NCBI GenBank assembly: GCA_945874535.1
Contig: CAMCGZ010000005.1
Coordinates: 29,276 to 93,275 of the forward strand
DNA: 64,000 nt
From: Bdellovibrio sp. ZAP7
Lineage (GTDB): Bacteria > Bdellovibrionota > UBA1018 > CAIMNF01
Direction of reading: 5' to 3'
The translations under genes and the position numbers were made by a program. Of the stretch, positions 17,240-33,177 are shown one piece after another; positions within the stretch are counted from its first letter, which is position 1; every line of letters starts with the position of its first letter. The notes under the pieces were generated by a model that did not search any database, was not told where the DNA came from, and worked only from the letters and a program-made list of their open reading frames with translations.

Positions 17240-17326
17240 GAGTGCCTCCGGGGGCGGGGTTTCAGCCACAGGCTAACTCATTTCAGTTATTAAGGAAAGA
17301 TGCCGAAGAGCTGACGGGAGATGCAC

Positions 17327-18250
17327 ATGAATGCGTTGATCGAGTACCGCACATTGGTTCTGTATGCCGGCTACGCCCTGATCGGTTTGGCAACGTTCAT
17401 CCTCGGGAACATGTTGCTTTCCGAGCAGGAGAACATGAATGCGAGCGAGAATCTCCGTCAGCTCGACGGGAAGAAAACCTCGAACGACTTCGTCCGTCTC
17501 ACCCGTCCGTTTTTTTCGCAGTACATTGTTCCCGCCATCCGGAGCAAATCCCGATTTGATGAAGCAAGGCTGAAATACAGGCGTAAAATCATCAGCGGCG
17601 GTCTCAAGGATGAACTCACTGCCGACGAATTCATCGCGTTCAAGATCATGCTCGTGATGATTTTTCCAATTGTGGGTGGTTTTGTCCGTGCTCTCGATCT
17701 CGCGGACATCCCGAACTATGTGATGCTCTTCCTTCCTGTCATCGGCTACTTCTATCCAGATTTCTGGGTGAATGGCCGGATCAAGGTCCGTCACGGTCAA
17801 GTGATCAAATCCATGCCCTTCGTGGTGGATCTGCTCGCATTGTCCACCGAGGCAGGCCTCGACTTCATCGGTGCAATCCAGAAAGTGGTCGAGAAGGCCA
17901 CGCCCGGACCGTTCATAGACGAAATGGAACAGGTCTTGAAAGAGATCAAAGTCGGTTCTTCGCGTTCCGAGGCACTCCGTGAAATGGCCTTCCGGATCAA
18001 CCTACAGGAGGTCAATTCCTTCGTCGCGGTCTTGTGCTCCGCCGATCAAATGGGGGCCTCGATCGGAAAGGTCCTCCGCCAGCAATCGGATCAGATCCGG
18101 ACATTGCGTTTCGTCCGGGCCGAGAAAGCCGGTGCGCTTGCCACTCAAAAGTTGATGTTCCCGACATTCGCTCTGATCCTTCCGGCGATTCTGATCATGA
18201 TGCTGATGCCGTTCGGTTTACAAGCCTATATGAACGGGGGAGGCGGCTGA
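17327..18250 (+). CDS. tadC: Type II secretion system F-family inner-membrane protein (TadC-like)
   Basis: T2SSF-domain sequence PFVVDLLALSTEAGLDFIGAIQKVVEK...SEALREMA and C-terminal TM helices. ATG 17327 has GGGAG 6 nt upstream; the track start is 17321. Confidence 0.8.
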   Translation: MNALIEYRTLVLYAGYALIGLATFILGNMLLSEQENMNASENLRQLDGKKTSNDFVRLTRPFFSQYIVPAIRSKSRFDEARLKYRRKIISGGLKDELTADEFIAFKIMLVMIFPIVGGFVRALDLADIPNYVMLFLPVIGYFYPDFWVNGRIKVRHGQVIKSMPFVVDLLALSTEAGLDFIGAIQKVVEKATPGPFIDEMEQVLKEIKVGSSRSEALREMAFRINLQEVNSFVAVLCSADQMGASIGKVLRQQSDQIRTLRFVRAEKAGALATQKLMFPTFALILPAILIMMLMPFGLQAYMNGGGG

Positions 18251-18615
18251 TGCGCGAACTCCGGATCGTCCGCCAGCAGGATGGAGTGGTGGTGGCCCAC
18301 CGGGCCCGCGTCGCGGACGGTTTTATGAGTCGTTTGAGAGGATTGATCGGGATCACCGAGTTTCCGGAAGGGGAAGGCTTGCTTTTTCCCCGTTGCAACA
18401 ACATCCACATGTGGATGATGAGCATCCCGATTGATGCGGTCTTTCTCGGAAAGTGCGATTCCGGCTGGAAGGTGATGAGTACTCACCCCTGTTTGAAACC
18501 CTGGAAAATCCTTCCTGTCGGGAACGCGAAAGCCGAGGACGTGCTCGAGCTTCCGGTTGGAACGGTCGATCGACTCAAACTCCGTAACGGGGAGGTGCTA
18601 TGCATCGTCTCGTGA
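18250..18615 (+). CDS. DUF192-domain protein
   Basis: The pattern GFMSRLRGLIG...GLLFPRCNNIHMWMMSIPIDAVFL...VLELPVG matches the DUF192 (COG1430) signature. ATG 18250 overlaps the tadC stop (TGATG); the track ORF's N-terminal extension to 18034 lies inside tadC. Confidence 0.7.
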   Translation: MRELRIVRQQDGVVVAHRARVADGFMSRLRGLIGITEFPEGEGLLFPRCNNIHMWMMSIPIDAVFLGKCDSGWKVMSTHPCLKPWKILPVGNAKAEDVLELPVGTVDRLKLRNGEVLCIVS

Positions 18616-20267
18616 TTGTCGCCGGTCCGAACCGCGGGAGCGCCTTTTCTCTGATCGAAGGTGAGAACACGATCGGACGTCAGATGGACAACCACATCGT
18701 GCTGACCTCTTCGAAAGTTTCGAAGCGGCATTGCGCTTTGTTGGTGACCACCCAGGAAGTCATCTTGAGAGACGAGGGAAGCACCAACGGCACCTTTGTG
18801 AACGGTGCGCTCGCACGGCGCCACACCATGAAACCCGGAGACAAGCTCGGAGTCGGGGAGTTCGTTCTCGAACTCGTCCGATCCGGGGTTCCAGCTCAGA
18901 TGTCCACGGGCCAAACCGGCTCGTTTCCGAATCCGCTCGACGGGGGAATGCTCCCGTCGAATCCCTTCGAACTAACGGGAGGGGCGGGCGCCCTGTCCAT
19001 TCCGGGAGCCGGGTCGGCACCCGTGCGTTCGGGACCCGCGAATCTACAGGAGGCCAAATTCGATGACCTTGCTCCCAAACAGGAGCTCCCCGAGGATCTT
19101 CCAGGAAAATTGAAGTTCCTGTTTGAAGGTAAAATCATGCCTACTTTTTACGGCATGTTGATGAAGAGCGAGTTCGGGAACCTCCTGGCCGGACTTCTCG
19201 GGATCACTCTCCTGATTTCGGTGTTCGCATCCGTCATGCCCATGGAGAACATGGCTGAGCAGGGGATCCAGCGTGAAGCGAGGATCCGGGGAACCGTATT
19301 GGCGAGGGAGGTCGCCGACCGCTACGCCCCGAATTTTGTCAATCACACCGAATCCCAGATCGACTTTTCACTCCTGACTCAGGAGGAAAGCATCAAGATC
19401 GTGGCACTTCTCAATATGGACCTCAATATTGTGGCCCCGCCGTCCCGCTTGGGACAGTTGTTCTCTGTCGGTGGTGAGGCGGCCTTTGCCCGAAAAATGA
19501 TCAAGGAATACCGGGAGGGCCGGGAAAAAGGCGGAGGAATGTTCCTCGACGCCAACACCTATGTCCACATCGAGCCCATCAAGGCTGCCGATCCGCGGAC
19601 CTACGCCAATGAGGTGGTCGCTCTGGCACTGGTGTCGATCGATTTTTCAAGGAATATGGTGACGGCGGGCGGTTTGGAAATCGCCTACGGGTCTGCGATC
19701 ATTTACACGGCGATCATCGGGTTGTTGTTCTATTTCATCTTGCTTCGACTGATCCACAAGCCCTATGAGGTCATGAACGACGACCTCGACCAGGTGCTCA
19801 GGGGTGAAATCCCCAGGGTGACCAAGGAGTTCAAGGTGGGGAACCTGGAAAAACTGTGGGACAACGTCAATGCCGCGGTTCAGAGGATGGGCAAGGGTGA
19901 GTCTTCCGGAGACGAAGGCGCGGTGATGTGGGATCAGGAATTCGCTCCGTGGCTCGCAGTCACCGAGATGGGCCAGATGGGACTCATCGGGTTTGACTCG
20001 AACCTCGTACTCATGACAGTCAATCCGTTCTTCTCAGAACTGAGCGGCATCCGGTCCGACTCCGTGGGGCAGACCCTGGGTCAAGTCGCTGATCAGGCGA
20101 TGAACTCGCTCGTAACCGAATTGAAGGCGAATGCCGAGCGCTCGGGGAACCGTACCGCAACCGACAAGTTCGAGTTTCAGGGGATCGATTATTCCGTTGT
20201 TGGGACCCTCGTCGGTCCGAAAGACCAGGCGGGTATCGCACTCCTGTTCAGAAAGAAGGAAACCTGA
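18600..20267 (+). CDS. FHA-domain membrane signalling protein (FHA - TM - extracytoplasmic domain - TM - HAMP-like - PAS-like C-terminus), no output enzyme domain
   Basis: FHA motifs IGRQ...SKRHCAL...STNGTFVNG. Hydrophobic helices LLAGLLGITLLISVFASV and IIYTAIIGLLFYFILLRLI. HAMP-like HKPYEVMNDDLDQVLRGE. GGAGG SD before the ATG. Confidence 0.8.
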   Translation: MHRLVIVAGPNRGSAFSLIEGENTIGRQMDNHIVLTSSKVSKRHCALLVTTQEVILRDEGSTNGTFVNGALARRHTMKPGDKLGVGEFVLELVRSGVPAQMSTGQTGSFPNPLDGGMLPSNPFELTGGAGALSIPGAGSAPVRSGPANLQEAKFDDLAPKQELPEDLPGKLKFLFEGKIMPTFYGMLMKSEFGNLLAGLLGITLLISVFASVMPMENMAEQGIQREARIRGTVLAREVADRYAPNFVNHTESQIDFSLLTQEESIKIVALLNMDLNIVAPPSRLGQLFSVGGEAAFARKMIKEYREGREKGGGMFLDANTYVHIEPIKAADPRTYANEVVALALVSIDFSRNMVTAGGLEIAYGSAIIYTAIIGLLFYFILLRLIHKPYEVMNDDLDQVLRGEIPRVTKEFKVGNLEKLWDNVNAAVQRMGKGESSGDEGAVMWDQEFAPWLAVTEMGQMGLIGFDSNLVLMTVNPFFSELSGIRSDSVGQTLGQVADQAMNSLVTELKANAERSGNRTATDKFEFQGIDYSVVGTLVGPKDQAGIALLFRKKET

Positions 20268-20270
20268 TCC

Positions 20271-21326
20271 ATGATTCGTGACAAGGTCTTCCGATTCAAC
20301 AAGGCCGAGGTTCCCCGCCAAGCGGGTGAATTCGCGCGCTTGCGGGTCATCAAGGGCCCCGATGTCGGAGCGACTTTTGTAGTCAAGGAGTCCACCTTCA
20401 CTGTCGGTCGGGGTGAGACCGTGGACATCATTCTGGCCGATCCTAAGTCTTCAAGAAGTCATGCCCGGATCGAATTCACCTACGAGGGATGGCTCGTGAG
20501 TGATCTCGGTTCGGCGAACGGTATCTTTTATTCCGGTGAGTTCGTTCGAAAGTTCAAGATCAAAAGCGGAGACCACTTCACCGTCGGTGACAGTGTCCTC
20601 GAGTTCCTGATGAGCCGGGAGTCCGATCGTGCCTTGATGGCCCCGGTCAAAGAAAACCGGGATGTCGAACGTCTCGATGTTGCGCTTGCCCAGCAGAAGG
20701 TCAAGGTCAAGAATATCTCCAGGCCCGTGGCCGGAGTTCAGAAGAAGAAGCAAGAAAAGCGGAGTCCTCTTCTTTTGGTGGCGATTCTCCTCGGTGTTGC
20801 AGGGTATGTCTATCCGGACGAGGCCCGGCCGCTGCTTGAGGAGCTCGGACTCGGCATGATTGCCGACTTTCTTCCTGAGACCCCGAAATCAAAGATCGGG
20901 AAAGCCAAAAAGGCAGGCAAAGACTCCGAGAAAAAAGACAATGAGGTCCGGGATGTCGCGTCGCTCGCTCCTCCGAGCGTGACCCGTGAGGTGGAGAGGA
21001 CGGCAGATCAGCACTTCGCACTCGGGTTCCGCGAGTATACTGCGGGGAACTATTTGCGTGCCAAGGAGGCATTCGAGCTGGCGCTCCAGGTCAATCCGCA
21101 CCACGGGCGGGCCCGGTATTATCTGATGCATGCAGATCATGAGAATCGCGAGGAGATCCGGAAGATCGTCGATTCCGCGCGGATTGCGAAGGAGTTCGGA
21201 CGTACGCGTAAGGCGATCGGATTGTATGAGACTGCGATCCGTCACCTGTATTATGATCGTGAGAATCCTTTGTATGTCGAATGTGAGGCGGCTTTGAAAG
21301 ATCTGAAGAAAGTGGAGGCACAATGA
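20271..21326 (+). CDS. FHA-domain protein with one TM helix and C-terminal TPR-like repeats
   Basis: FHA motifs VGRGE...SRSHARI...SANGIFYSG. TM helix LLLVAILLGVAGYVY. TPR-like FREYTAGNYLRAKEAFELALQVNPHH. Confidence 0.8.
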   Translation: MIRDKVFRFNKAEVPRQAGEFARLRVIKGPDVGATFVVKESTFTVGRGETVDIILADPKSSRSHARIEFTYEGWLVSDLGSANGIFYSGEFVRKFKIKSGDHFTVGDSVLEFLMSRESDRALMAPVKENRDVERLDVALAQQKVKVKNISRPVAGVQKKKQEKRSPLLLVAILLGVAGYVYPDEARPLLEELGLGMIADFLPETPKSKIGKAKKAGKDSEKKDNEVRDVASLAPPSVTREVERTADQHFALGFREYTAGNYLRAKEAFELALQVNPHHGRARYYLMHADHENREEIRKIVDSARIAKEFGRTRKAIGLYETAIRHLYYDRENPLYVECEAALKDLKKVEAQ

Positions 21327-23572
21327 GCGGATCATTGCGTCTCGAAGTTTTTCAGAACGGCGAGCTCCTCCGGACCATTCCATTCGATGGCCAGGAACTT
21401 TGGTTCGGCAGGGACGAGGAGTGCATGATCCGCCTTGATGATCGGGCGATCTCCCGCAAGCATGCGCTGATCCGATCCACTTCAAACGGAATCGAGTTCG
21501 AGAAGAAGTCCAAGTTCGGGATGGCGCGACTCAACGGAAAAGAGACCGATCACGCTCTGATACAGGGGGGTGAGCGGCTCGAACTCGGGTCATTTGAAAT
21601 CCGTTTTGTGAAAGAGGGGACCGGTCAGACCAAAGCGGTTCAGGAGGTTCAAACCACTTCACCGGCGTTGATGACAGAACCTGCGATCACCGAAACTGCT
21701 CTCCCCGAAGGGGAAGGACTGGATTCCGCAACGCCGGAAGAAAACCCGTTCGGTAGCGCTTCGCCGGAAGGAGAAGCCTTCTCCTCCGGGGCGGGGGACC
21801 CGTTCCAGACACCGGAACAAGGGCCGGCATCGTCAGGGGCTACCCGGAGCTTCGATTTCGGCGAAGTCGATCAGGATGGCGCCACCCGGGTGTTCAAGAG
21901 CCCTTCGCGATCCATGAAACCGATTCTGGAGTTCGGTGACGGAACCGCGAGTATGGGGTTCTACGAGATCGTGGACGCTGAGATCGCGATCGGACGATCC
22001 CAGAAATGCCATGTGGTCCTTGAGGACAAACGTTCTTCAAGGAAGCATGCGATCATCCTCCAGAGAAGTGAGAAGTATTTTTTGAAAGATCTCGGTTCCG
22101 CGAACGGAACCCTCCTGAACGGTGAGCGGGTCGGCGAACAGGAGTTGCATAGCGGAGATATCATCCGGATCGGGGATACCCAGTTCACCTTCAAAATGGT
22201 GCAGAGCGACTACGAGCAGAAAAAATCGGAGTTTTTCCAGGTTCCCCAAGAGCCAGAATCGCCTGTCATGGCTGATGGATTTCCGGCTTCGGTGGCGCAC
22301 GCCCCCCTGACCGCGATGCCTGCTCCCGCAATGGGAGGAGGGTTCCCAGCATATACCCAGGAACTGCTCCAGTCCGGCCCCGAGATCGCCGAACCGGTCG
22401 CACCTGACTTCACGGTTCCGGAAGAGGAGACCCAGACTTTCCTTGGCCGGCTGATCCAGCGTTACCGGATGCTGAACACCAAACAGCAGGTGATTTACGG
22501 TCTGGTGGTGCTGGCAGGGATCTATTTCATTTTTGATGAGCCGCCGGCCCCGGTCAATGCGGTCGACCCCGTGGCAGAACAGAAAAAAGCTTTGAAAAAG
22601 GCCGAGAAAAAGCCGGGAGGCGGCGTCACCTACGAGATGCTGACCAAGGATCAGAAGGATTACGTCGACGCCCAGTACGATCTCGCTTTCGAACACTACA
22701 AGAATCGCGATTACGATAAGTCCCTCTTCGAGCTCGATAAGATCTTCAAGATCGTTCAGGATCACAAACGTGCCCGCGAGATCGAAACCTATGCCAGAGA
22801 GGCCAAGCGGAGGCTGGAGGCGCAGGAAGAAGATCGGAAGCGAAAGGAACAGGAGCGCCAGTCCCGCCTGAAGCTGGAAGAGCTGTTGAGTCGATCCGGA
22901 AGTTTGATGGAGGAAGGGAAGTACGGCGAGGCGGAAGAATTGTTCCCCGAGATCGAGATTCTCGAGCCCGAGAACGCAGCAGTTTCGGCCTGGAGGAAGA
23001 AAATCCTCGAAGAAAGCGAGAAACTCAAAGTCGTGGAGGAGAACCGGAAGCGTCTGGCCGCCGTTCTTTCGAAGGCCAAGGCGGATGTCGAGGCAGCTGA
23101 GGACTTTTTCAAAGATAAGCGGTATGTCGATGCGCTCGAGATTCTGGACGATGTCGTGGAACGGACGGATCTCGATGCAAAATATTCAAAGCAGGTCGAA
23201 ACCCGGATCAAGGATATCGAAAAAGTGATGGCATCCGAGCGAGATCCGCATATCGAAAGTGGAAAGCGTTTCGAGGCCGATGGCAAGCTCGGAGAGGCTC
23301 ATAAAGAGTACAAAGCGGCCATCGCCATTGACCCGTCCGACAGCGAGGGTCCTGCAGGGATCAAGAGGATTCAAGGCCAATTGAATTCGATGGCGAAGGC
23401 CATCTATTCCGACGGGGTGATTGCCGAAGGGTTCGGGGATTATGATGTCGCCGAGAAAAAATACCGCGAGGTGATCGATACCGTCCCGGCAGATAATTCC
23501 TACCACGTCAAAGCGAAGGCCCGATTGAAGGTTTTCTCCACCTTGCGCAAGGCGCAGGAGGGCGGGCGATGA
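21323..23572 (+). CDS. Tandem-FHA membrane protein with long coiled-coil/TPR C-terminal region
   Basis: Two FHA domains: FGRDEE...SRKHALI...RLNG and IGRSQK...SRKHAII...SANGTLLNG. TM helix VIYGLVVLAGIYFIF. Charged coiled-coil segment (EAKRRLEAQEEDRKRKEQERQ) and TPR-like repeats. ATGA overlap with the previous gene. Confidence 0.8.
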   Translation: MSGSLRLEVFQNGELLRTIPFDGQELWFGRDEECMIRLDDRAISRKHALIRSTSNGIEFEKKSKFGMARLNGKETDHALIQGGERLELGSFEIRFVKEGTGQTKAVQEVQTTSPALMTEPAITETALPEGEGLDSATPEENPFGSASPEGEAFSSGAGDPFQTPEQGPASSGATRSFDFGEVDQDGATRVFKSPSRSMKPILEFGDGTASMGFYEIVDAEIAIGRSQKCHVVLEDKRSSRKHAIILQRSEKYFLKDLGSANGTLLNGERVGEQELHSGDIIRIGDTQFTFKMVQSDYEQKKSEFFQVPQEPESPVMADGFPASVAHAPLTAMPAPAMGGGFPAYTQELLQSGPEIAEPVAPDFTVPEEETQTFLGRLIQRYRMLNTKQQVIYGLVVLAGIYFIFDEPPAPVNAVDPVAEQKKALKKAEKKPGGGVTYEMLTKDQKDYVDAQYDLAFEHYKNRDYDKSLFELDKIFKIVQDHKRAREIETYAREAKRRLEAQEEDRKRKEQERQSRLKLEELLSRSGSLMEEGKYGEAEELFPEIEILEPENAAVSAWRKKILEESEKLKVVEENRKRLAAVLSKAKADVEAAEDFFKDKRYVDALEILDDVVERTDLDAKYSKQVETRIKDIEKVMASERDPHIESGKRFEADGKLGEAHKEYKAAIAIDPSDSEGPAGIKRIQGQLNSMAKAIYSDGVIAEGFGDYDVAEKKYREVIDTVPADNSYHVKAKARLKVFSTLRKAQEGGR

Positions 23573-24297
23573 GTACGGCGAATCGTTCTCGACTTCCCTT
23601 GCGGTTTGCCGAGGGCTTCCAGATCCAGGGGGATGCCCCGGTTCAGGAGGATTATTTTGAACTCAATCCCGATAGGGGGATTTACATTCTGGCGGACGGG
23701 TTCGGTGGGAGCCTCGGTGCCCGGGTTGCAGAGACCGTGGTGAAATCCATGCGTCAGTATCTCGAGCATGAGGCCGGGGATCTCGATGCGACCATGCCTT
23801 TTGAACTCAGGCCCTATTTTTCGCTCGCTGGAAATGTTTTGTTCAATGCGGTCGCCTTTGCCAATCAAAAGATCCTCGAGATCAACCGAGGCAGGAACTG
23901 GCAGGACTCCGGTGGGGCAAGCGTGGTCGCGGGCTATCTGGAAGGAAGGTTGCTTTCAGTGGCAAGGGTCGGTGCCTGTCGCTTGCGGCTCAAACGAGCC
24001 GAGCAGCTGAAAGAGCTCATTCCGGCCAGGAGTCTGCTCAGGCAAACCGACCCGATGAGCGAAGAAGGACCGGGTGATGCCGTGCCGCTCATGAGTTTCG
24101 GTACGGCACGCTCCCTTGAACCGGAAATGACCGAGCTCGAGCTCAGGACCGGAGATCAGGTGTTTTTTGAAACGGGTGGGGTGCGTCAGGTCTGGCGTCA
24201 GAAAATTCACGCTATCAATGATCCCCATGGACTGAAAGACGTATTGGAATCCTCGAATTCTCCTGGAAATGCGTCGATGATTTGGCTTGGCTTTTAA
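23569..24297 (+). CDS. PP2C-family Ser/Thr protein phosphatase (short, single domain)
   Basis: ILADGFGG metal-binding motif, GGASVVAGYL...VGACRL, 242 aa. ATGA overlap with the upstream FHA gene. Confidence 0.75.
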   Translation: MSTANRSRLPLRFAEGFQIQGDAPVQEDYFELNPDRGIYILADGFGGSLGARVAETVVKSMRQYLEHEAGDLDATMPFELRPYFSLAGNVLFNAVAFANQKILEINRGRNWQDSGGASVVAGYLEGRLLSVARVGACRLRLKRAEQLKELIPARSLLRQTDPMSEEGPGDAVPLMSFGTARSLEPEMTELELRTGDQVFFETGGVRQVWRQKIHAINDPHGLKDVLESSNSPGNASMIWLGF

Positions 24298-24306
24298 TTA
24301 TACGAG

Positions 24307-24339
24307 CCCTGTGTAACAATCTACACAGGGGGCCCTGTG
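24307..24339 (+). promoter_or_regulatory. Perfect 9-bp inverted repeat plus third complementary copy, covering the SD and GTG start of the first flp pilin gene
   Basis: The main repeat is CCCTGTGTA (24307-24315), loop ACAATC, TACACAGGG (24322-24330). CCCTGTG recurs at 24333-24339 and includes the GTG start at 24337. The AGGGGG SD lies in the 3' arm. Confidence 0.55.
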
Positions 24340-24528
24340 AGCCAGAAACGGAAATCCGGACAAGCGGTGATCGAATATATCCTGCTCCTGAGCATGGTCG
24401 TCGGGATCATGGTGGCGTTTTTGCGCACATTGAACGGGTCATTCGACAAGGCGGTGCCGAGAATGGGTGGCACCATTGAGCGCCAGCTCCGGACAGGCGC
24501 AGCCTCTGCGGGAGTGTGGCGAAAGTGA
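24337..24528 (+). CDS. flp: Flp/Fap-family type IVb pilin
   Basis: 63 aa. Class III leader with Flp processing motif SG/QAVIEYILLLSMVV (G/XXXXEY followed by a hydrophobic helix). Confidence 0.8.
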   Translation: MSQKRKSGQAVIEYILLLSMVVGIMVAFLRTLNGSFDKAVPRMGGTIERQLRTGAASAGVWRK

Positions 24529-24803
24529 TACGGAACGACCGGGGACAGGCCGTGGTCGAGTACATCATTCTCCTGGCGATTCTCGTCGGGCTTTATGGTG
24601 CGGTGATCCGACAGCTGAGTGAGCGGGATATTTTCCAGAAAATGCAAAAGCCCCTCACCCAGGATTTCGCCGCCACCTACCGCTACGGGCATCCGAAAGC
24701 CAAGGGAATGGACGATGGCGGACCAGTCAATATTCCAACAGTTCAGAGCAAGGGATACGACGACCAGAACTTCAGGATTTTTTACAATCCGACGATAGAG
24801 TGA
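24516..24803 (+). CDS. flp: Flp-family pilin, second paralogue (longer C-terminus)
   Basis: RG/QAVVEYIILLAILVGL motif. GTG 24516 or GTG 24525; the latter gives a GTGA overlap with the flp-1 stop. Confidence 0.75.
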   Translation: MAKVIRNDRGQAVVEYIILLAILVGLYGAVIRQLSERDIFQKMQKPLTQDFAATYRYGHPKAKGMDDGGPVNIPTVQSKGYDDQNFRIFYNPTIE

Positions 24804-25345
24804 ATGAGATGGTGTTTGAAAATATTGAGAAAAACAACGGAGGACAGGCGGTGATCGAGTTCATTCTCGGGCTCTTGATCGTCATCTCTTTCTTTTTCTT
24901 TTACGTTCGCCTGAGCGCTGTGTTCGCCATTTCAAACTACATTCAATATGCCACATTCATGTCCGCCCGGACTCTAGCCTCTTCAGCCAAAGATCAGATG
25001 GTGCAGGAGGAGAACGCAAAGCAGGTTCTCCAGTCCATGGTGAGTGGGAAGTTCAAGGGCCTCATCAAACCGAAGTCAGGTGATGGGATCTTTGTGGGCG
25101 ATGGAAACTACTTCAGCAGCCTCGGACCCATCGAAGAATGGAATCACGGAGCCTCTTACCAGTTTTCAGCCAAGCTCTCATTCTACCCCTTCAGCGCGAA
25201 CGACCAGGCGGTGATGCTCGACCTCACCAGCGAGAGCTGGATGCCCCGTGAACGCAGTGAGGATGAGTGTCTGAAGGCGAAGTCGAAGATCGAGTCCATG
25301 ACCGGCGTTCAAAACGTGAAAGTGGAGTGGGACAATGGATGCTGA
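24800..25345 (+). CDS. TadE-like pseudopilin
   Basis: N-terminal GG/QAVIEFILGLLIVISFFFF leader-helix of TadE/TadF type, ~180 aa. Start is GTG 24800 (GTGA overlap) or ATG 24809. Confidence 0.7.
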   Translation: MNEMVFENIEKNNGGQAVIEFILGLLIVISFFFFYVRLSAVFAISNYIQYATFMSARTLASSAKDQMVQEENAKQVLQSMVSGKFKGLIKPKSGDGIFVGDGNYFSSLGPIEEWNHGASYQFSAKLSFYPFSANDQAVMLDLTSESWMPRERSEDECLKAKSKIESMTGVQNVKVEWDNGC

Positions 25346-25859
25346 TGAAGGGCAGAGCATACTTGAAGTCATCCTGTTTCTTCCCTTCCTTTTCATTCTG
25401 GTGGGGTTGCTGATCAAGATGAATACCGGCATCCAGATGGCGATCAATAACGCACGTTACGCCAGAGCCCAGCTTTTTGTACTGACCAACAATTCACCGG
25501 AATATCCCCGTCTGCAACTCCGGAAGAATCGACTCGTGAAAAATGCCCATGACATGTTGGTGGTAGGGGTTTCGGACCCTCTGGCGATCGAGGAAGCGGC
25601 TTCGGATGGAGATATGCCTGCCATTCCGCAGATCCAGTCGATCGGCAATAAGAAAGCAAAAGGAAGCAATGAGCGCGGCGAGGTGAAGTCCCGGACCGAC
25701 ATCCGGATCAGGGGGACTGCTACGATCTGCACTCAGAGTAATTCGGTGACCAAAGGGACACCTATCGACTCGCTTCAAATCACGGCCTTGGCGAACCAGC
25801 GCTGGCCGTTCGGGAAAATGGCCTGTCAGTATGACGGGTCCTGGATCGGAGATCAGTGA
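25335..25859 (+). CDS. TadE/TadG-like pseudopilin, second copy
   Basis: N-terminal EG/QSILEVILFLPFLFILVGLL. 174 aa. Overlaps neighbours at both ends. Confidence 0.65.
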   Translation: MDADEGQSILEVILFLPFLFILVGLLIKMNTGIQMAINNARYARAQLFVLTNNSPEYPRLQLRKNRLVKNAHDMLVVGVSDPLAIEEAASDGDMPAIPQIQSIGNKKAKGSNERGEVKSRTDIRIRGTATICTQSNSVTKGTPIDSLQITALANQRWPFGKMACQYDGSWIGDQ

Positions 25860-26716
25860 TGAATAGCAGGGCAATGACATTATCATTGGTGATGGCGGGT
25901 ATCGCCGTTTTCTTCGTGATGAGCTCCGTCTCGAGTATCGAGCAGAGTGCCACCATGAAATACGGAGACGAGGTGACTGTCCTGGTTGCCAAGCAGGATA
26001 TCCGGGAGATGGCCACCATTCTGGACGGCATGGTTGAAGCCAAGTCCGTGCCGAGGAACTTTATCGAGCCGACCGCGGTCAAGTTCGACGGCAAGCTCGA
26101 CGTAGAATCGGTCGAGGGCGCCAAATCCTATTCCATACAATCCAAAAGAATCGTGGGTAATGTTGCGATCGTGGCGATCAAGAAAGGAGAGCAGCTGACG
26201 CTGAACAAAATCACCGAACCGAGCATGCGGACCGGCCTCGCTCCCCAGGTGACTCCGGGTAAACGCGCCATCGCCGTGCCCATCGACGAATCGACCAGTG
26301 TCGCGAAGCTGGTGAAGCCGGGAGACCGCGTGGATGTGATCGCGGTGGTCCAATCGATGGGGGTCGGTGGTCGTGAAGTCAAGACCGCGAAGACGGTGTT
26401 TCAGGATGTCGTGATTCTCGCCGTGGGCCGCTCCATTGCGAACAATGTGGCCCGCCGGGTGGACGTCGATATGGGCGGAACAGCCCGCGTCCGTTCCTTG
26501 ACCGAGTACGACGGCTACAGTTCGGTGACTCTCGAACTCGATCCGGTGCAAGCCCAATTGGTGGCTGCCATCTACACAGATAACTCCAACAAGCTGATTC
26601 TCTCGCTCCGGAATAATGATGATGCCGATCGGGTGGCCATCAGTGCGCCATCCCGTGCGACCGATGTGCTGTCCGATAGTCAGCGTTTGCCGGCGAGTGG
26701 TGGAGGTCTAAAGTGA
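25856..26716 (+). CDS. cpaB: Flp pilus assembly protein CpaB/RcpC
   Basis: N-terminal TM anchor. A SAF-like segment is followed by an RcpC-like beta-rich region (RAIAVPIDESTSVAKLVKPGDRVDVIAV). Sits directly before the secretin gene. Confidence 0.75.
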   Translation: MMNSRAMTLSLVMAGIAVFFVMSSVSSIEQSATMKYGDEVTVLVAKQDIREMATILDGMVEAKSVPRNFIEPTAVKFDGKLDVESVEGAKSYSIQSKRIVGNVAIVAIKKGEQLTLNKITEPSMRTGLAPQVTPGKRAIAVPIDESTSVAKLVKPGDRVDVIAVVQSMGVGGREVKTAKTVFQDVVILAVGRSIANNVARRVDVDMGGTARVRSLTEYDGYSSVTLELDPVQAQLVAAIYTDNSNKLILSLRNNDDADRVAISAPSRATDVLSDSQRLPASGGGLK

Positions 26717-26717
26717 T

Positions 26718-28412
26718 ATGTTGAAGGCTTCTGTTTGGCTCCTGCTCAGCTTGATTTCCATTCCGCTCGAGACTCAGGCCCAACAGGAGGCGGCATCCCC
26801 GACTCCCGCTGAAGGCGAAGTCGAGGAGCGGAAGGAACGGAAGCGGCGCCGGGCGCCCGAAGAGAAAGCTTCTTATACCCGTTCCCGATATTCGGCGGAT
26901 CGTAGCGAGGCGGAGGCCGATCGTCGGGCCCTGCTCCTGACGGCCGGCGTTGACAAGACCATCGACCTCGAAGCGAGTCTAAAGATCACCGGTGACGCCA
27001 CACAGAGGGTCCTGGTGGGTAACCTGTCGGTTGTCAATGTGTTGCCCGTTCTGGTCGGTGATCGTAAGCAATTGATCTTCAAGCCCGCCGCAGTGGGGGA
27101 GACGAACGTGACCATCCGGGATGACTCCGGTAACGTCCGTCTGATTTTCGAGGTGATCGTCGCCCAGGCCAATCAGATCCGCAATCTCGAAAGATTGCGG
27201 GAGAATCTGAAAGAGGTGGAAGGCATCACGATCAATATCGAGGAGAAGAATATCGTTCTTCGCGGAGAAGTGCTCACTACAGCCGATTTCAGCACGGTGA
27301 ACAATGAGCTTGCGGGAGAGCTCTATGGTAAGGAAGTCATCAACAAGGTGAAGATGTCGCCCGTCACCCTGAATTTCCTGGCCAAGCGGATCGAGCAAGA
27401 CATCCAGGTATTCGCTCCGACCGTCCGGGCATCCGTGATCAACGGTAAGATCATTCTCGAGGGCACCGTCGACAGCGAGGGAGCCAAACAACGGGCTTAC
27501 AATCGCGCATATTATTACCTTCCCATGGTCCGGTTCAAAGAAAACGTCGGAAACGACCAGAATGTGATCGAGATGGAGCAGGACAAGAAGACGTTCATCC
27601 TCCAGTCTGACATCACCGTCCAGGCGCCACCTCCCAAGCGGGAGAGCAAGCTCGTCCGCATGACTGTTTACTTTGTCGAATTGGGCAAGGACTTCCTGAA
27701 AGCTTTCGGATTCAAGTGGCAGCCCGGATTCGCCTCGGACCCTAGCATCAGCGTCGGGACCACCGCGACCGGTGGGGTGGGAACCAATAGCGGTGGTTTC
27801 ACCTTCAGTGGAACCTTGACTTCACTGTTCCCTACGATCAGTTCTCCTCCGTCCAATGCCTCCTATGGCCGGATCATGAAATCCGCGACCATCATCGTGA
27901 AGAACAAGGAAGAGGGAGAAGTCCGGGATCAGGTGCAGGTGCCCACCCAGTCACTCGGCCAAGGCGGTACTCAGGGTAACGGTCAGGCCGTACCGGTGGG
28001 CTTCCACATCAAAATGACACCCACCATTCTCGATGGCCAGGATGTCGATGTGAACGTGGACATCGAGCAGAGTAACCAGGTCGGGAAGGGCGTGGGAGGG
28101 ACTCCGATCGTCGCCAGTCACAAGGTGAAAACCCGCTTGTACCTGAAATCAGGCGAAACCGCAGCATTGACCGCGGTGAACAAGCAAGACGTGGCCACAT
28201 CGTTCAATCGGGACGATGCCGCTCCGGGGGCTTTCCAGCAAACCCAGGGGGGCGCCCAGACCAAACCGCTCTTCAGTTTCCAGCGGTCGAAGAACATGTC
28301 GAAGTCGAGAGGTCAGTTTGTGATTTTCGTCAATCCGCAGATCATCGATAACGCCTCCGAGGGCACGGAAGACTTGAAGAAGAACTTCCGGATGACATCG
28401 AGCACTCGCTGA
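26718..28412 (+). CDS. cpaC: Tad secretin CpaC/RcpA
   Basis: Signal peptide, BON-like module (ITINIEEKNIVLRGEV), and a C-terminal secretin domain ending ...GQFVIFVNPQIID. Confidence 0.85.
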   Translation: MLKASVWLLLSLISIPLETQAQQEAASPTPAEGEVEERKERKRRRAPEEKASYTRSRYSADRSEAEADRRALLLTAGVDKTIDLEASLKITGDATQRVLVGNLSVVNVLPVLVGDRKQLIFKPAAVGETNVTIRDDSGNVRLIFEVIVAQANQIRNLERLRENLKEVEGITINIEEKNIVLRGEVLTTADFSTVNNELAGELYGKEVINKVKMSPVTLNFLAKRIEQDIQVFAPTVRASVINGKIILEGTVDSEGAKQRAYNRAYYYLPMVRFKENVGNDQNVIEMEQDKKTFILQSDITVQAPPPKRESKLVRMTVYFVELGKDFLKAFGFKWQPGFASDPSISVGTTATGGVGTNSGGFTFSGTLTSLFPTISSPPSNASYGRIMKSATIIVKNKEEGEVRDQVQVPTQSLGQGGTQGNGQAVPVGFHIKMTPTILDGQDVDVNVDIEQSNQVGKGVGGTPIVASHKVKTRLYLKSGETAALTAVNKQDVATSFNRDDAAPGAFQQTQGGAQTKPLFSFQRSKNMSKSRGQFVIFVNPQIIDNASEGTEDLKKNFRMTSSTR

Positions 28413-28430
28413 GAAAGGGACCAAGAATCA

Positions 28431-30581
28431 ATGGGACACATCATCGCAGTGGTAGGGGGAAAGGGAGGGGTCGGGAAGAGTGTCTTTGCCGCGAACCTCG
28501 CGATCGCCTACCAGATGAACTTCAAGCAGCGCTCCCTGATCATCGATCTCGACTTTCAGAGTCTGGGTGATCAAAACATCATTCTCGGCCTGAATCCTCC
28601 CAAGAATATCGTGGATGTGACCAAAGCCCAGGTGGGGACCTGGGATCCGAAGGCGATGACTCCGTTCCTTGCCAATTCACCGCAGGGTTTCAGTTTCATT
28701 GGAGCTCCGCGCGAGGCAGCCCTGGCCAAAGACATCGATCTGGACGGTCTCGGAAAGTTTCTGAAGGCGGCCGTCGGTGTTTTTCCATGGGTCGTGATCG
28801 ATTGCGGGAATGGCACCGATCCTCATGCATTGAAGGCGATGGAGCAAGCCAGCCTCATTTTTGTGGTGACCACACCTGATGTGATCGTCTTGAATCAAAC
28901 CCGGCGGATTCTCGGAAAGGTACAGGAACTCCTGTTCCCGCAGGAGATGGTGCAAGTGGTGGTGAACCGATACTCACCCAACAATGTGATCAACCCCCAG
29001 ATGATCCAAAAGAGTATCAACAAGGCTCCTTATTTCGCCATTCCCGAGGATGCCGCCACGTGTGAGGCCTCGCTTACCAAAAGCCAGCCCTTCACCATGG
29101 TGAATCCTGGAGCTGCGATTTCGAGAGCCTTCTCGGATCTGGTTCGTCGCATGGATCAGAGTAAGATGCTCGATCAACTGGCCAAGCTGAACAAACCGAC
29201 CGGCGTCGCTCAAAAGGCCGGTTCTGCTGCTGTTGTCGCTGTTGACGGTGGCGGTGAGAACGGGGGGTTGCTGTCTCGATCGAAATCGGCCCCGACCGAT
29301 CCCTGGACGAGCATGAAACTCCGGATCCACAAGGCACTCATCGACGTGGTCGACATGAAGAAGATGAATGTCGATGTCGCTGATTCGAAACAGCGCGAGG
29401 TCTTACGCGAAAAAACCCAAAAAGCGATTCTCGACGTCCTGGCCAAAGAGGATGTTTCGACTCTTTGCCCGACGCGTGAACTCAGAGCCCAGTTGGTCAA
29501 AGAGGTGTTGGATGAGGCGCTCGGTCTCGGACCGCTCGAGGACCTCCTTGCGGATGACTCGGTGACCGAAATCATGGTGAACGCCCGGGATCAAATCTAC
29601 GTCGAACAGGGTGGTAAGCCCGGATTGTCCAGAACCACTTTTTCGAGCGAGCAGCAGATGATGAACGTGATCGAGCGGATTGTCACTCCGCTCGGACGCC
29701 GGGTGGACGAGAAAACCCCCTATGTCGATGCCCGTCTCGCCGATGGATCACGGGTACACGTGATCATTCCTCCACTTGCGCTGAGGGGGCCCACGATCAC
29801 GATCCGAAAATTCCCCAAAAAACGGATCATGGCCTCGGACTTGGTGAAGTTCGGTTCCATGACACAGGAAATCGCAGATTTCCTTCGAGCCTGTGTCGAG
29901 GCCAAACTCAATATCGTGGTGTCGGGGGGCACCGGCTCCGGTAAGACGACTTTGCTGAATGTGCTTTCAAACTTCATTCCGGCGACCGAACGGATCATCA
30001 CGGTTGAGGATGCTGCCGAACTCCAGCTTGGACAGGAGCACGTAGTCCGGCTCGAGACCCGACCGAAGAACATCGAGGGCGAGGGTGAGGTCTCCATCCG
30101 GGATCTGATCAAGTGCTGTCTCCGGATGCGGCCGGACCGGATCGTGGTCGGGGAGTGTCGGGGAGGAGAGGCCATGGACATGCTTCAGGCGATGAACACC
30201 GGCCACTCCGGATCGCTGACCACCGTTCACGCCAATAATCCTAGAGAATGCATCGGACGACTGGAGACCCTGGTGATGATGGCGGGAATGGGTTTGCCGC
30301 TCAAGGCCATTCGCGAGACGATTGCCAGTGCGGTCAATCTCATCATCCAGCAGTCCCGTCTGACTGACGGGACTAGGAAAGTGACTTATGTCTCCGAGGT
30401 ACTCGGGATGCAGGGCGAAACCGTGACGATCCAAGACATCTTCATCTACAAGCAAGAGGGTCTGGATAAGAACCGTAAGATTATTGGCAGATTCGTGCCC
30501 ACCGGCTTCATTCCGAAATTCGTGGAAGAAATGGAAGCAAAGGGCATGAAAATCTCACGGGGCCTTTTCGCGGTCAAATAA
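28431..30581 (+). CDS. Fusion protein: N-terminal MinD/ParA-type (TadZ/CpaE-like) ATPase domain + C-terminal CpaF/TadA secretion ATPase
   Basis: The deviant Walker A VVGGKGGVGKSV sits at residues ~8-19. After a ~60-aa Ala/Gly-rich linker comes a full CpaF-type domain (Walker A SGGTGSGKTT, VGECRGGEA, TGHSGSLTTVHAN). One uninterrupted 716-aa frame. Confidence 0.85.
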   Translation: MGHIIAVVGGKGGVGKSVFAANLAIAYQMNFKQRSLIIDLDFQSLGDQNIILGLNPPKNIVDVTKAQVGTWDPKAMTPFLANSPQGFSFIGAPREAALAKDIDLDGLGKFLKAAVGVFPWVVIDCGNGTDPHALKAMEQASLIFVVTTPDVIVLNQTRRILGKVQELLFPQEMVQVVVNRYSPNNVINPQMIQKSINKAPYFAIPEDAATCEASLTKSQPFTMVNPGAAISRAFSDLVRRMDQSKMLDQLAKLNKPTGVAQKAGSAAVVAVDGGGENGGLLSRSKSAPTDPWTSMKLRIHKALIDVVDMKKMNVDVADSKQREVLREKTQKAILDVLAKEDVSTLCPTRELRAQLVKEVLDEALGLGPLEDLLADDSVTEIMVNARDQIYVEQGGKPGLSRTTFSSEQQMMNVIERIVTPLGRRVDEKTPYVDARLADGSRVHVIIPPLALRGPTITIRKFPKKRIMASDLVKFGSMTQEIADFLRACVEAKLNIVVSGGTGSGKTTLLNVLSNFIPATERIITVEDAAELQLGQEHVVRLETRPKNIEGEGEVSIRDLIKCCLRMRPDRIVVGECRGGEAMDMLQAMNTGHSGSLTTVHANNPRECIGRLETLVMMAGMGLPLKAIRETIASAVNLIIQQSRLTDGTRKVTYVSEVLGMQGETVTIQDIFIYKQEGLDKNRKIIGRFVPTGFIPKFVEEMEAKGMKISRGLFAVK

Positions 30582-30599
30582 CCCCAGTATCATGAGGGT

Positions 30600-31475
30600 A
30601 TGAGTTTCGCGATTCCTCATTGGCTGCTCGGCCTCGTCGTATTCGTCTCGGCGTTGTTGGTTGCCTATCAATTCTCGGGAAGGATTCTCGATTGGGTGAG
30701 ATTCCACTCCATCGGAACCCGGGATTACATCGCAGACAAACTCAAGTTGATGATGATCGATCTTCCTCTCGAGAAGATCCTCATGTACCAGGTCGGGTTC
30801 TCTTTCGGTCTGGGAGGAATGGTGTTTTTGGCTTGTTTGCCGAATTTCGCGGCAGGCGGCGTACTGGGCGGAGTGGTGGCGATCGCAGCTTGGTTTCTTC
30901 CGAAGCCGATCGTGAACGTTCTTTATCAGAAACGTGTGGATCGTTTCGTCGAGCAAATGGTCGATGGACTCGGTCTCATGTCCAACGGCATGAGGTCGGG
31001 GCTTTCGGTCGCCCAGGCGATGGGACTGGTCGCTCAGGAGATGCCGGATCCGATCAAGTCGGAATTCGAATTGGTGCTGAATCAGAACAAGCTCGGTTCC
31101 TCACTCGAGTCCGCATTTATCGATTTGTCCAAACGGGTGATCGCGGATGAAGTGGAAATGTTCGTGACCTCGGTGGTGATTCTGAAGGAGACCGGCGGAA
31201 ATTTGGCGGAAACCTTCGATACCATCACCACCTTGATTCGCGAGCGGATCAAAGTGGAAAATAAGATCAAAGCGATGACCGCTTCCGCGTTCTGGCAAGG
31301 GATGATCTTGCTCGGAGTTCCGCCCTTCATGGGTTTGACTCTTTCCCAGTCCGATCCTGAACTGATGAGGCCCATGTTCGAGACCTGGCTCGGTTGGTTG
31401 GGTCTATCTACCGTGGCAATTTTGATGATCGTGGCTTATTTTGTAATCAAGAAGGTGACAAAAATCGATGTTTGA
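30600..31475 (+). CDS. tadB: Type II secretion system F-family protein (TadB-like)
   Basis: T2SSF sequence VTSVVILKETGGNLAETFDTITTLIRER, with N- and C-terminal TM helices. Confidence 0.8.
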   Translation: MSFAIPHWLLGLVVFVSALLVAYQFSGRILDWVRFHSIGTRDYIADKLKLMMIDLPLEKILMYQVGFSFGLGGMVFLACLPNFAAGGVLGGVVAIAAWFLPKPIVNVLYQKRVDRFVEQMVDGLGLMSNGMRSGLSVAQAMGLVAQEMPDPIKSEFELVLNQNKLGSSLESAFIDLSKRVIADEVEMFVTSVVILKETGGNLAETFDTITTLIRERIKVENKIKAMTASAFWQGMILLGVPPFMGLTLSQSDPELMRPMFETWLGWLGLSTVAILMIVAYFVIKKVTKIDV

Positions 31476-31485
31476 GGTGAGAAAA

Positions 31486-33177
31486 ATGACCAGAGTTTTG
31501 ATCTTGTTGGGAGCATTGCTTTCGGTGTCCAGTGCATTCGCCCGCGCGGATGTGAGTCTTCGGAACGGAAACTTTTTCGTGTCACTGAGAGACATCTCTT
31601 ATCCGGGGGGGATGGAGCCCAAGATCGAGCGGGTGTACAACTCGAAATCCGATTTTCACGGGATGTTCGGATACAGTTGGGGCACCGAATACGAAACGCG
31701 CCTGTCTTTCGATCCTGACGGAAGCCTCCTCCTGACCGAATACGGTGGAGGTGCGAATATCCGTTTCAGTCCAAAGACCTATTCCGCGAATGACGTCGAT
31801 GAAGGGATCAAGTCAGTGGTGAGTGCCGCCCAGAAAGCGGGAACCATCACCAGTGCCAAGGGGCTTGAGGAATACCGGAAGCGTTTGAAAGAAAACCCTG
31901 AATTCAGGGCCAAACAGTACGCGATCTTTGTGAACAAAGGAAGCCTGCAGCGAAAAGCGATTGTGGATGGAACCCAGTTCATTTCGACCGATTACCAGTA
32001 CCAGTACCTCACACGCGTGAAAGGCGGGTACACGCGGGTGATGGAGGCTGGTATCATCCAGAAGTTCAATGAAGCAGGTCGTTTGGCCCAAATCATGGAT
32101 CGAAACAGGAATTTCGTGAACTTCACCTACGATACCAACGGTCGGGTCGCCCAGATGATCGACAATCAGAATCGTAAGATGAATTTCTCTTACAATCAGT
32201 TCGGTCTGGTGGAGCGGATTGTTGGCGAAAGCGGCAAGAAAGCCGAGTTCAGGTACTCAAAAGAGGGATTCCTAGTCTACAGCAAGGATGACGCCGGTGT
32301 GGAAAACACTTTCAAGTACACCGCCGATCAGTATCGCAATCTTTCAGAGATCGGATACCCGAACGAACGGAACGCCAAGGGCGAATCGAAGCGGATGATC
32401 GTGGGTTATTACGGTCCGGAAAAGAATTCGAGCGTGAAATCGGTCGTGAATCTCGACGGGACCGTGAATGAGTACGAATACGAAATCGGCGGGAAGACTC
32501 CCGGTTACTATTCGGTGCGGGTGGTGTTGAAAGACTCATCCGGTGCCAAGCTGAATGACTCCAGGTATGAGTATTTCTACAAGACCAAGCCGAGCGGGGA
32601 GGAGTTCACCGCCCGGATGGTCACCACAGTGGATGGTGAGAAAACCGAGACTGTTTACGACGAAAAACTCGGCTATCCCCTGAAGATCACCGCGAACGGC
32701 AAAACCACCACGATGGAGTACGACATGAAGGGACGGATGGTCCGTAAGGTCACACCGCTCCACACCACGACGCTCACATACGATCCGGCGGTGGGTAAGG
32801 TGTCCAAGGTTGTCAAAAAAGTGACCAGTGGAACGGTGATCTGGAGTGAGTTCGAATACGATAAGGCCACCGGGAACCTCCTGGTCGCCCGCAACAGCGA
32901 TAAAAAGCTGGTGAAGCTGATCTACGATGGTCAAGGCCGGATCAGTGCATTGGTGGATCAGGCGGGCCGCCAGCTCACCTTCAGGTACAACGAGCTCTCG
33001 AAGCCGGTCGAGATCCGGGATGCCAAGCTAGGAACCGTCAAGTTCACCTACAAGAACAGTGGCGAGGTGGACAAGGTGGACAGCAACGGGGGCGCCAGTG
33101 TTTCTGTTGAGGTGATGAGGGCTTTGCAGAGCCTGATCGACATCACCGCCCCGGCGGGCGTCACGATGTCGATTTGA
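31486..33177 (+). CDS. Secreted YD/RHS-repeat protein without recognisable toxin domain
   Basis: Signal peptide MTRVLILLGALLSVSSAFA. Many YD-type repeats (FTYDTNGRVAQMIDNQNRKMNFSYNQFGLVERI, TYDPAVGKVSKV, IYDGQGRISALVDQAGRQLTFRYNE). No PxxxxDPxGL core-end motif. GAGG SD 8 nt before ATG 31486. Confidence 0.8.
   Translation: MTRVLILLGALLSVSSAFARADVSLRNGNFFVSLRDISYPGGMEPKIERVYNSKSDFHGMFGYSWGTEYETRLSFDPDGSLLLTEYGGGANIRFSPKTYSANDVDEGIKSVVSAAQKAGTITSAKGLEEYRKRLKENPEFRAKQYAIFVNKGSLQRKAIVDGTQFISTDYQYQYLTRVKGGYTRVMEAGIIQKFNEAGRLAQIMDRNRNFVNFTYDTNGRVAQMIDNQNRKMNFSYNQFGLVERIVGESGKKAEFRYSKEGFLVYSKDDAGVENTFKYTADQYRNLSEIGYPNERNAKGESKRMIVGYYGPEKNSSVKSVVNLDGTVNEYEYEIGGKTPGYYSVRVVLKDSSGAKLNDSRYEYFYKTKPSGEEFTARMVTTVDGEKTETVYDEKLGYPLKITANGKTTTMEYDMKGRMVRKVTPLHTTTLTYDPAVGKVSKVVKKVTSGTVIWSEFEYDKATGNLLVARNSDKKLVKLIYDGQGRISALVDQAGRQLTFRYNELSKPVEIRDAKLGTVKFTYKNSGEVDKVDSNGGASVSVEVMRALQSLIDITAPAGVTMSI

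What the first reader, a model, noticed from the sequence alone, without database searches (positions are those of the whole stretch)
18600..24297. Three FHA-domain membrane proteins (four FHA domains) plus a PP2C phosphatase embedded in the Tad locus, with no Ser/Thr kinase
All four FHA domains keep the canonical G-R ... S-x-x-H ... N-G signature:
- IGRQ/SKRH/NGTFVNG
- VGRG/SRSH/NGIFYSG
- FGRD/SRKH/RLNG
- IGRS/SRKH/NGTLLNG

Each protein has a predicted cytoplasmic FHA part, one or two TM helices, and a large C-terminal region rich in TPR or coiled coil.

The four genes are translationally coupled (3-nt gap, then two ATGA overlaps) and end with a short PP2C phosphatase (ILADGFGG). The topology FHA - TM - periplasmic scaffold recalls T3SS YscD/PrgH-type ring proteins and the T6SS Fha/PpkA/PppA threonine-phosphorylation switch. 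This suggests post-translational gating or scaffolding of the Tad machine.

No Hanks-type kinase is present anywhere in the 64 kb, so the writer of the phospho-mark is unlinked or unknown.
Basis: partly seen in the sequence, partly recalled or inferred. Interest (0 to 1): 0.7.

Follow-up and report, generated by a model that had tools for sequence, protein, structure and literature searches.

The report
FHA sensor-scaffold operon with dead phosphatase
Four tightly coupled genes inside the Tad pilus locus of an uncultured Bdellovibrio-like predator encode three membrane proteins that carry phosphothreonine-reading FHA domains and a phosphatase-shaped protein that has lost key catalytic residues. 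By gene order and domain layout they match an operon that published screens in Bdellovibrio bacteriovorus scored as needed for predation, whose mechanism is still unknown.

Summary
ORFs 18600-20267, 20271-21326, 21323-23572 and 23569-24297 are real, translationally coupled genes with four Pfam-significant FHA domains. No Hanks kinase was found in the 64 kb window or in 954 kb of 65 related loci.

1. The fourth protein has a PP2C fold (AF2 pLDDT 88.9; Foldseek tPphA E 3e-16). It lacks the equivalents of tPphA D119, D193 and D231. Both core aspartates are absent in all 93 cluster representatives at least 46% identical to it and present in 25 of 26 more distant ones. It is most likely a pseudophosphatase.
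2. FHA1 is not an FHA-TM-scaffold. It is FHA, TM, periplasmic PAS/Cache-like domain, TM, HAMP-like helices and a cytoplasmic PAS domain, which is a WalK-like sensor body without a kinase core.
3. Published work covers this module. Gene order and architecture match B. bacteriovorus Bd0470-Bd0475 (TadC, DUF192, three FHA proteins, a "hypothetical"), listed as attack-phase predation-essential. A Bd0474 mutant attaches to prey but cannot kill.

The order TadC-DUF192-FHA1-FHA2-FHA3-PP2C-like is conserved in every Bdellovibrionota locus examined that has enough flank. The FHA phosphate-binding residues are essentially invariant, as is one threonine (T188) in the FHA3 linker.

Most likely this is a phosphothreonine-read sensor/scaffold coupling the Tad platform to periplasmic partners, with an unlinked kinase.

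The parts
17321..18250 (+). tadC-like inner-membrane platform gene and first gene of the coupled unit (Bd0470-like)
   Evidence: Pfam T2SSF E 4.7e-16. It lies immediately upstream of the module in the related loci with enough flank, inverted in two of them, and in the split-type loci L080 and L081.
18250..18615 (+). DUF192 small protein (121 aa from the ATG at 18250; the mechanical ORF starts at 18034), with no TM helix found by the hydropathy scan
   Evidence: Pfam DUF192 E 6e-14. The start ATG shares one base with the tadC stop, and the stop lies 16 nt inside FHA1. tblastn matches in orthologous loci begin around residues 60-80 of the long ORF. Bd0471 is annotated as a DUF192 protein.
18600..20267 (+). 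FHA1 (555 aa, Bd0472-like). Layout: FHA 1-95; disordered linker 97-160; TM1 195-213; periplasmic alpha/beta PAS/Cache-like domain about 257-348; TM2 367-385; HAMP-like helices 386-431; cytoplasmic PAS 444-552
   Evidence: Pfam FHA E 1.3e-15. Hydropathy. AF2 mean pLDDT 76.5. Foldseek: WalK model 9a5d_A E 2.9e-12 over 387 columns; the FHA part matches GarA/OdhI at 34-35% identity, rmsd about 1 A. G26, R27, S41, H44, N63 and N68 are present in 50 of the 51 aligned sequences; the remaining one has a gap.
20271..21326 (+). FHA2 (351 aa, Bd0473-like). Layout: FHA 25-112; post-FHA motif D119-x-x-L-x-A-P (Thr in most orthologues); TM 167-181; periplasmic TPR-containing C-terminus
   Evidence: Pfam FHA E 2.6e-14 and TPR_2 E 1.9e-5. 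The TM helix has a KKKQEKR N-flank, consistent with the positive-inside rule. G46, R47, S61 and H64 are invariant in 51/51 and N83 in 50/51. T119 motif.
21323..23572 (+). FHA3 (749 aa, Bd0474-like). Layout: atypical FHA3a 1-95; acidic linker with invariant T188; canonical FHA3b 200-292; linker; TM 390-404; periplasmic TPR-rich region of about 340 aa
   Evidence: Pfam FHA, two stretches, E 3e-30; TPR_2 E 1.7e-9. TM helix and flanking charges. Residue conservation. A Bd0474 mutant attaches to prey but cannot kill or round it (PMC6561027). The extracytoplasmic TPR domain of Bd0075 is required for its interaction with Bd0474 in BACTH, and AF-Multimer places the contact between the two extracytoplasmic TPR domains (PMC12034629).
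21884..21886 (+). Codon of FHA3 Thr188, a candidate phospho-acceptor in the motif [DE][DE]D-x-x-T-[KR]-[VIL], 10-14 residues before FHA3b
   Evidence: Thr in 53/53 aligned sequences within an otherwise poorly conserved linker. It is also kept in the distant split-type loci L080 and L081. Its function is inferred and was not tested.
23569..24297 (+). PP2C-fold protein (242 aa, in the position of Bd0475), a predicted pseudophosphatase. It keeps D28 and D43-G44. Residues A136, G203 and G233 replace tPphA D119, D193 and D231.
   Evidence: No Pfam hit. NCBIfam Stp1_PP2C E 7.7e-10, below cutoff. AF2 pLDDT 88.9, pTM 0.88. Foldseek: tPphA E 2.8e-16, TM 0.75-0.80; MspP; PppA; PstP. Residue map from the profile-PDB alignment. 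Clade statistics.
24337..24803 (+). Two Flp-type pilin genes (GTG 24337-24528, 63 aa; and 24516-24803), the start of the core tad block that follows the module
   Evidence: Translation shows ...GQAVIEYILLL... and ...GQAVVEYIILL... with N-terminal hydrophobic helices. Only a weak Flp1_like hit (E 0.067) for the second gene.
24800..33177 (+). Core Tad genes in the same orientation: two TadE-like pseudopilins, cpaB/rcpC, the cpaC secretin, the tadZ::tadA fusion, tadB and an RHS-repeat protein (Bd0109-like)
   Evidence: Pfam RcpC, Secretin/BON, T2SSE plus CbiA/ParA, T2SSF and RHS_repeat. The TadE-like call rests on a weak Pfam hit (E 0.043) and an N-terminal hydrophobic helix. Gene order is conserved in related loci. 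It corresponds to Bd0115-Bd0109 as listed in PMC8460266 supplement 2.

Best explanation
The region is the accessory half of a Kil/Tad-like pilus system in an uncultured freshwater member of the Bdellovibrionota. Six tightly coupled genes (tadC, DUF192, FHA1, FHA2, FHA3, PP2C-like) form a unit whose order and domain architecture match B. bacteriovorus Bd0470-Bd0475.

Shown here
- Four FHA domains are present, and all four keep the phosphate-contacting Arg and Ser.
- FHA2 and FHA3 are bitopic: the FHA part is cytoplasmic and a TPR domain is periplasmic.
- FHA1 is built like the sensor half of a WalK-type histidine kinase (TM, periplasmic PAS/Cache-like domain, TM, HAMP-like helices, PAS). It has no kinase core and carries an N-terminal GarA-like FHA domain.
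- The last protein has a PP2C fold whose M1 and M3 metal sites are dismantled in this clade.

Inferred mechanism
- An unlinked Ser/Thr kinase, activated on prey contact, phosphorylates threonines on module members or on Tad platform proteins. The invariant FHA3 T188 is the best candidate site.
- The FHA domains read these marks on the cytoplasmic face next to TadC, TadB and TadZA.
- The periplasmic TPR arms of FHA2 and FHA3 hold partners such as a Bd0075-like TPR protein, and possibly CpaB or the secretin. A cytoplasmic phospho-signal would thereby license or position the trans-envelope machine at a step after attachment.
- FHA1 adds a periplasmic and cytoplasmic sensory input.
- The PP2C-like subunit is the eraser in lineages that keep the catalytic aspartates. 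In the window's clade it persists as a non-catalytic binding subunit, either an adaptor or a shield for a phospho-site, probably bound to FHA2.
For: Identity and conservation
- Pfam FHA hits.
- The order TadC-DUF192-FHA1-FHA2-FHA3-PP2C-like holds in every one of 65 Bdellovibrionota species-representative loci that has enough flank. It also holds in a TadZA-seeded locus, L066, and in two split-type loci where the six genes stand alone, L080 and L081.
- Literature gives the same order and annotations for Bd0470-Bd0475, all listed as attack-phase predation-essential.
- A Bd0474::tn mutant attaches to prey but fails to kill or round it.
- Bd0474 interacts with Bd0075 in BACTH, dependent on the extracytoplasmic TPR domain of Bd0075. 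Bd0475-Bd0473 is predicted by AF-Multimer with ipTM 0.604.

Phospho-reading
- G-R, S-x-x-H and S-x-N-G are essentially invariant in about 50 orthologues of FHA1, FHA2 and FHA3b. G-R and S-R-x-H are equally conserved in FHA3a. Most of these residues also hold in L080 and L081.
- The FHA1 domain resembles GarA/OdhI at 34-35% identity and rmsd about 1 A.
- FHA3 T188 is Thr in 53/53 aligned sequences plus the two distant loci.

Pseudophosphatase
- PP2C fold.
- Residue map to tPphA.
- The motif-8 and motif-11 aspartates are kept in 0 of 93 close cluster representatives and in 25 of 26 distant ones. D28, D43 and G44 are invariant in both groups.
- Further independent losses occur within the distant group, and one extremely degenerate orthologue exists in L081.

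Kinase
- None in the window or in 954 kb of related loci (and the Pfam calls).
- In B. bacteriovorus another FHA protein, DgcB, is gated by phosphothreonine from a kinase that has not been identified. The unlinked Bd3148 has been proposed (PMC6733907).
Against: - No phosphorylation, binding or activity was measured. The mechanism rests on residue conservation and analogy.
- Orthology to Bd0470-Bd0475 rests on gene order, annotation and protein lengths taken from papers. I could not obtain the HD100 sequences, so I do not know whether Bd0475 keeps its catalytic residues.
- T188 could be a structural N-cap of FHA3b rather than a phosphosite. Its +3 position is not conserved.
- A PP2C with a remodelled site could keep weak or altered activity.
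- The 65 loci were found through the PP2C-like gene, so they cannot show how often Tad loci lack the module. L068 shows that a core tad locus can lack it locally.
- The clades are defined by identity to the window protein, not by a phylogenetic tree.
Confidence: 0.55

Rival explanations
1. Classical reversible phosphothreonine switch, as the first reader proposed and as in T6SS Fha1/PpkA/PppA. The PP2C-like protein is an active eraser that resets FHA-phosphothreonine interactions written by a distant kinase.
For: PP2C fold, with the T6SS phosphatase PppA among the Foldseek hits (6jkv, E 1.7e-14). D28, D43 and G44 are invariant. Sister-clade orthologues and L080 keep all four core acidic ligands.
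Against: In the window protein and in all 93 close cluster representatives, the aspartates equivalent to tPphA D193 and D231 are replaced by Gly, Ser, Ala or similar, with no conserved neighbouring acid. The D119 equivalent is Ala in the window protein and is not Asp in any of them. The phosphate-binding Arg (tPphA R13 equivalent) is mostly absent. From general knowledge of PPM enzymes, these aspartates hold metal M1 and their mutation severely lowers activity.
Confidence: 0.15
2. Phospho-independent structural ring or scaffold. The FHA domains act as plain protein-protein modules, as the FHA-like domain of T3SS SctD (YscD/PrgH) does, so no kinase is needed. The dead phosphatase is simply another structural subunit.
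For: Pfam Yop-YscD_cpl hits on all three proteins. No linked kinase in about 1 Mb of related loci. Catalytic residues of the PP2C-like gene were lost repeatedly, which would be expected if phosphorylation were irrelevant.
Against: The Arg and Ser that contact the phosphate, and the His and Asn, are essentially invariant in about 50 orthologues and largely kept in two distant lineages. To my knowledge SctD-type domains have lost them. The best structural matches are true phosphothreonine readers (GarA, OdhI, FhaA, DgcB). The periplasmic parts are TPR, not ring-building motifs, and TIGR02500 is far below its cutoff. Most distant orthologues keep an intact PP2C site.
Confidence: 0.2
3. The module is a general envelope or cell-cycle signalling unit that merely sits next to tad genes and does not act on the Tad machine.
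For: In split-type genomes the six genes are separated from the core tad locus (bioRxiv 10.64898/2026.07.08.737194). Bd0474 partners found so far (Bd0075) are not Tad proteins.
Against: Even when split from the core locus, the module stays directly downstream of tadC, an essential platform gene; in the window it is translationally coupled to it. It is contiguous with the full tad set in more than 60 loci. Attack-phase expression and a predation phenotype are reported.
Confidence: 0.07

Closest known systems
B. bacteriovorus HD100 operon Bd0470-Bd0475 (tadC locus)
   Same: Same gene order and annotations: T2SS-F/TadC, DUF192, FHA, FHA, double-FHA plus TPR, and a small 'hypothetical' protein. 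Protein lengths are similar (386/351, 674/749, 228/242 aa). The Bd0474 topology matches, with two cytoplasmic FHA domains and an extracytoplasmic TPR domain.
   Different: In HD100 the operon is separated from the main tad locus; here it is contiguous with flp-tadE-cpaB-cpaC-tadZA-tadB-RHS. Bd0475 has not been described as PP2C-like: only one paper in the library mentions it, as 'hypothetical'. Sequence-level orthology was not tested here.
Myxococcus xanthus Kil (Tad-like prey-killing) system with its FHA/TPR accessory proteins (KilD, MXAN_4648, MXAN_4649, MXAN_3104)
   Same: A Tad-derived machine in a predator with an over-representation of FHA and FHA+TPR proteins next to the platform genes. 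A signalling cascade has been proposed but not identified (PMC8460266).
   Different: In Kil the ATPase itself carries the FHA domain; here the ATPase is fused to TadZ. No PP2C-like gene is listed in the Kil clusters. KilD is described as cytoplasmic and had no Bdellovibrio homologue assigned. Homology beyond the FHA and TPR domains was not tested.
T6SS threonine-phosphorylation pathway (PpkA kinase, PppA PP2C phosphatase, Fha1/TagH)
   Same: An FHA reader plus a PP2C-fold protein encoded inside a secretion-machine locus. PppA is among the structural matches.
   Different: No kinase in the locus. The PP2C-like protein lacks M1 ligands. There are four FHA domains, on membrane proteins with periplasmic TPR or sensor domains. 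TIGR03354 scores 30-72 bits against a cutoff of 120.
T3SS inner-ring protein SctD (YscD/PrgH)
   Same: N-terminal cytoplasmic FHA-type domain, one TM helix and a large periplasmic part. Pfam Yop-YscD_cpl matches.
   Different: The periplasmic parts are TPR rather than ring-building motifs. The phosphate-binding residues are conserved here. TIGR02500 scores 21.6-27.4 bits against a cutoff of 86, over the FHA part only.
PP2C-fold pseudophosphatases (C-terminal domain of E. coli RssB; eukaryotic TAB1 and PHLPP2)
   Same: The PPM fold is retained with metal-binding residues lost and is used, or proposed to be used, as a binding module (PMC6546054 and PMC12002173, listed; the details are from my own knowledge).
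   Different: This is a stand-alone 242-aa protein in a pilus operon. It has a sister clade that still looks catalytically intact, so the transition is visible within one orthologous group.
WalK-type sensor histidine kinases
   Same: FHA1 residues about 190-555 share the order TM, extracytoplasmic PAS/Cache-like domain, TM, HAMP and PAS (Foldseek 9a5d_A, E 2.9e-12). There is a weak HK_WalK hit for the L080 orthologue (E 1.1e-4).
   Different: No DHp/CA kinase core. An FHA domain sits at the N-terminus instead.

Membership tests
FHA domain (Pfam PF00498) | Profile score above the gathering threshold | tested here: met
   58, 53.8 and 104.9 bits (two stretches) against a threshold of 20.7.
FHA domain (Pfam PF00498) | Phosphothreonine-pocket residues: Arg of G-R, Ser and His of S-x-x-H, Asn of S-x-N-G | tested here: met
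   Present in FHA1, FHA2 and FHA3b and essentially invariant in about 50 orthologues. FHA3a keeps G-R and S-R-x-H but has Phe in place of the Asn.
PPM/PP2C Ser/Thr phosphatases | PP2C fold (beta-sandwich flanked by helices) | tested here: met
   AF2 pLDDT 88.9. Foldseek tPphA E 2.8e-16, TM 0.75-0.80; also MspP, PppA, PstP and Stp1.
PPM/PP2C Ser/Thr phosphatases | Curated sequence-profile membership | tested here: not met
   No Pfam family at E<=10. NCBIfam Stp1_PP2C scores 38.7 bits against a cutoff of 230. More distant orthologues do hit PF13672 and PF07228.
PPM/PP2C Ser/Thr phosphatases | Four core acidic metal ligands (tPphA D18, D34, D193, D231) plus the M3 ligand D119 | tested here: not met
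   D28 and D43 are kept. A136, G203 and G233 replace D119, D193 and D231. The two core losses hold in 93/93 close cluster representatives.
T3SS SctD (YscD/PrgH), TIGR02500 | Equivalog score, and periplasmic ring-building domains | tested here: not met
   21.6-27.4 bits against a cutoff of 86, covering only the first 45-55 residues of an FHA domain. The C-termini hit TPR models.
T6SS threonine-phosphorylation pathway (TagH/Fha, PpkA, PppA) | TagH/Fha equivalog, a Hanks kinase and an active PP2C encoded together | tested here: not met
   TIGR03354 scores 30-72 bits against a cutoff of 120.25. No kinase. PP2C site degenerate.
Bdellovibrio Bd0470-Bd0475 predation-essential operon | Gene order TadC-DUF192-FHA-FHA-2xFHA/TPR-small protein with matching architectures | tested here: met
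   Window order and domains compared with annotations and lengths in PMC12034629. The same stand-alone operon is seen in L080 and L081.
Bdellovibrio Bd0470-Bd0475 predation-essential operon | Sequence-level orthology to the HD100 proteins | not testable with these tools
   HD100 sequences could not be retrieved.
Kil/Tad-like predation apparatus (Bdellovibrionota type) | TadZ::TadA fusion ATPase, secretin, CpaB, TadB/TadC, Flp and TadE-like pilins, adjacent RHS (hit-locus) gene | tested here: met
   Pfam on window ORFs, with only a weak hit for the TadE-like genes. Correspondence with Bd0109-Bd0119 in PMC8460266 supplement 2 and the 2026 preprint.

The most novel reading that the evidence does not exclude
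The module is a trans-envelope phosphothreonine 'reader' device with no enzyme of its own. It would comprise a histidine-kinase-like sensor body that outputs through an FHA domain (FHA1), two FHA-TM-TPR couplers, and a PP2C pseudophosphatase that has changed from eraser to a non-hydrolysing phospho-site binder or latch. Together they would hold the Tad invasion machine in a licensed state after prey contact. The active-to-dead transition of the PP2C subunit within one orthologous operon would then be a natural experiment in how an eraser becomes a reader or adaptor.
Probability: 0.2. Interest if true: 0.75.

Novelty: new variant of a known kind. Interest (0 to 1): 0.55.

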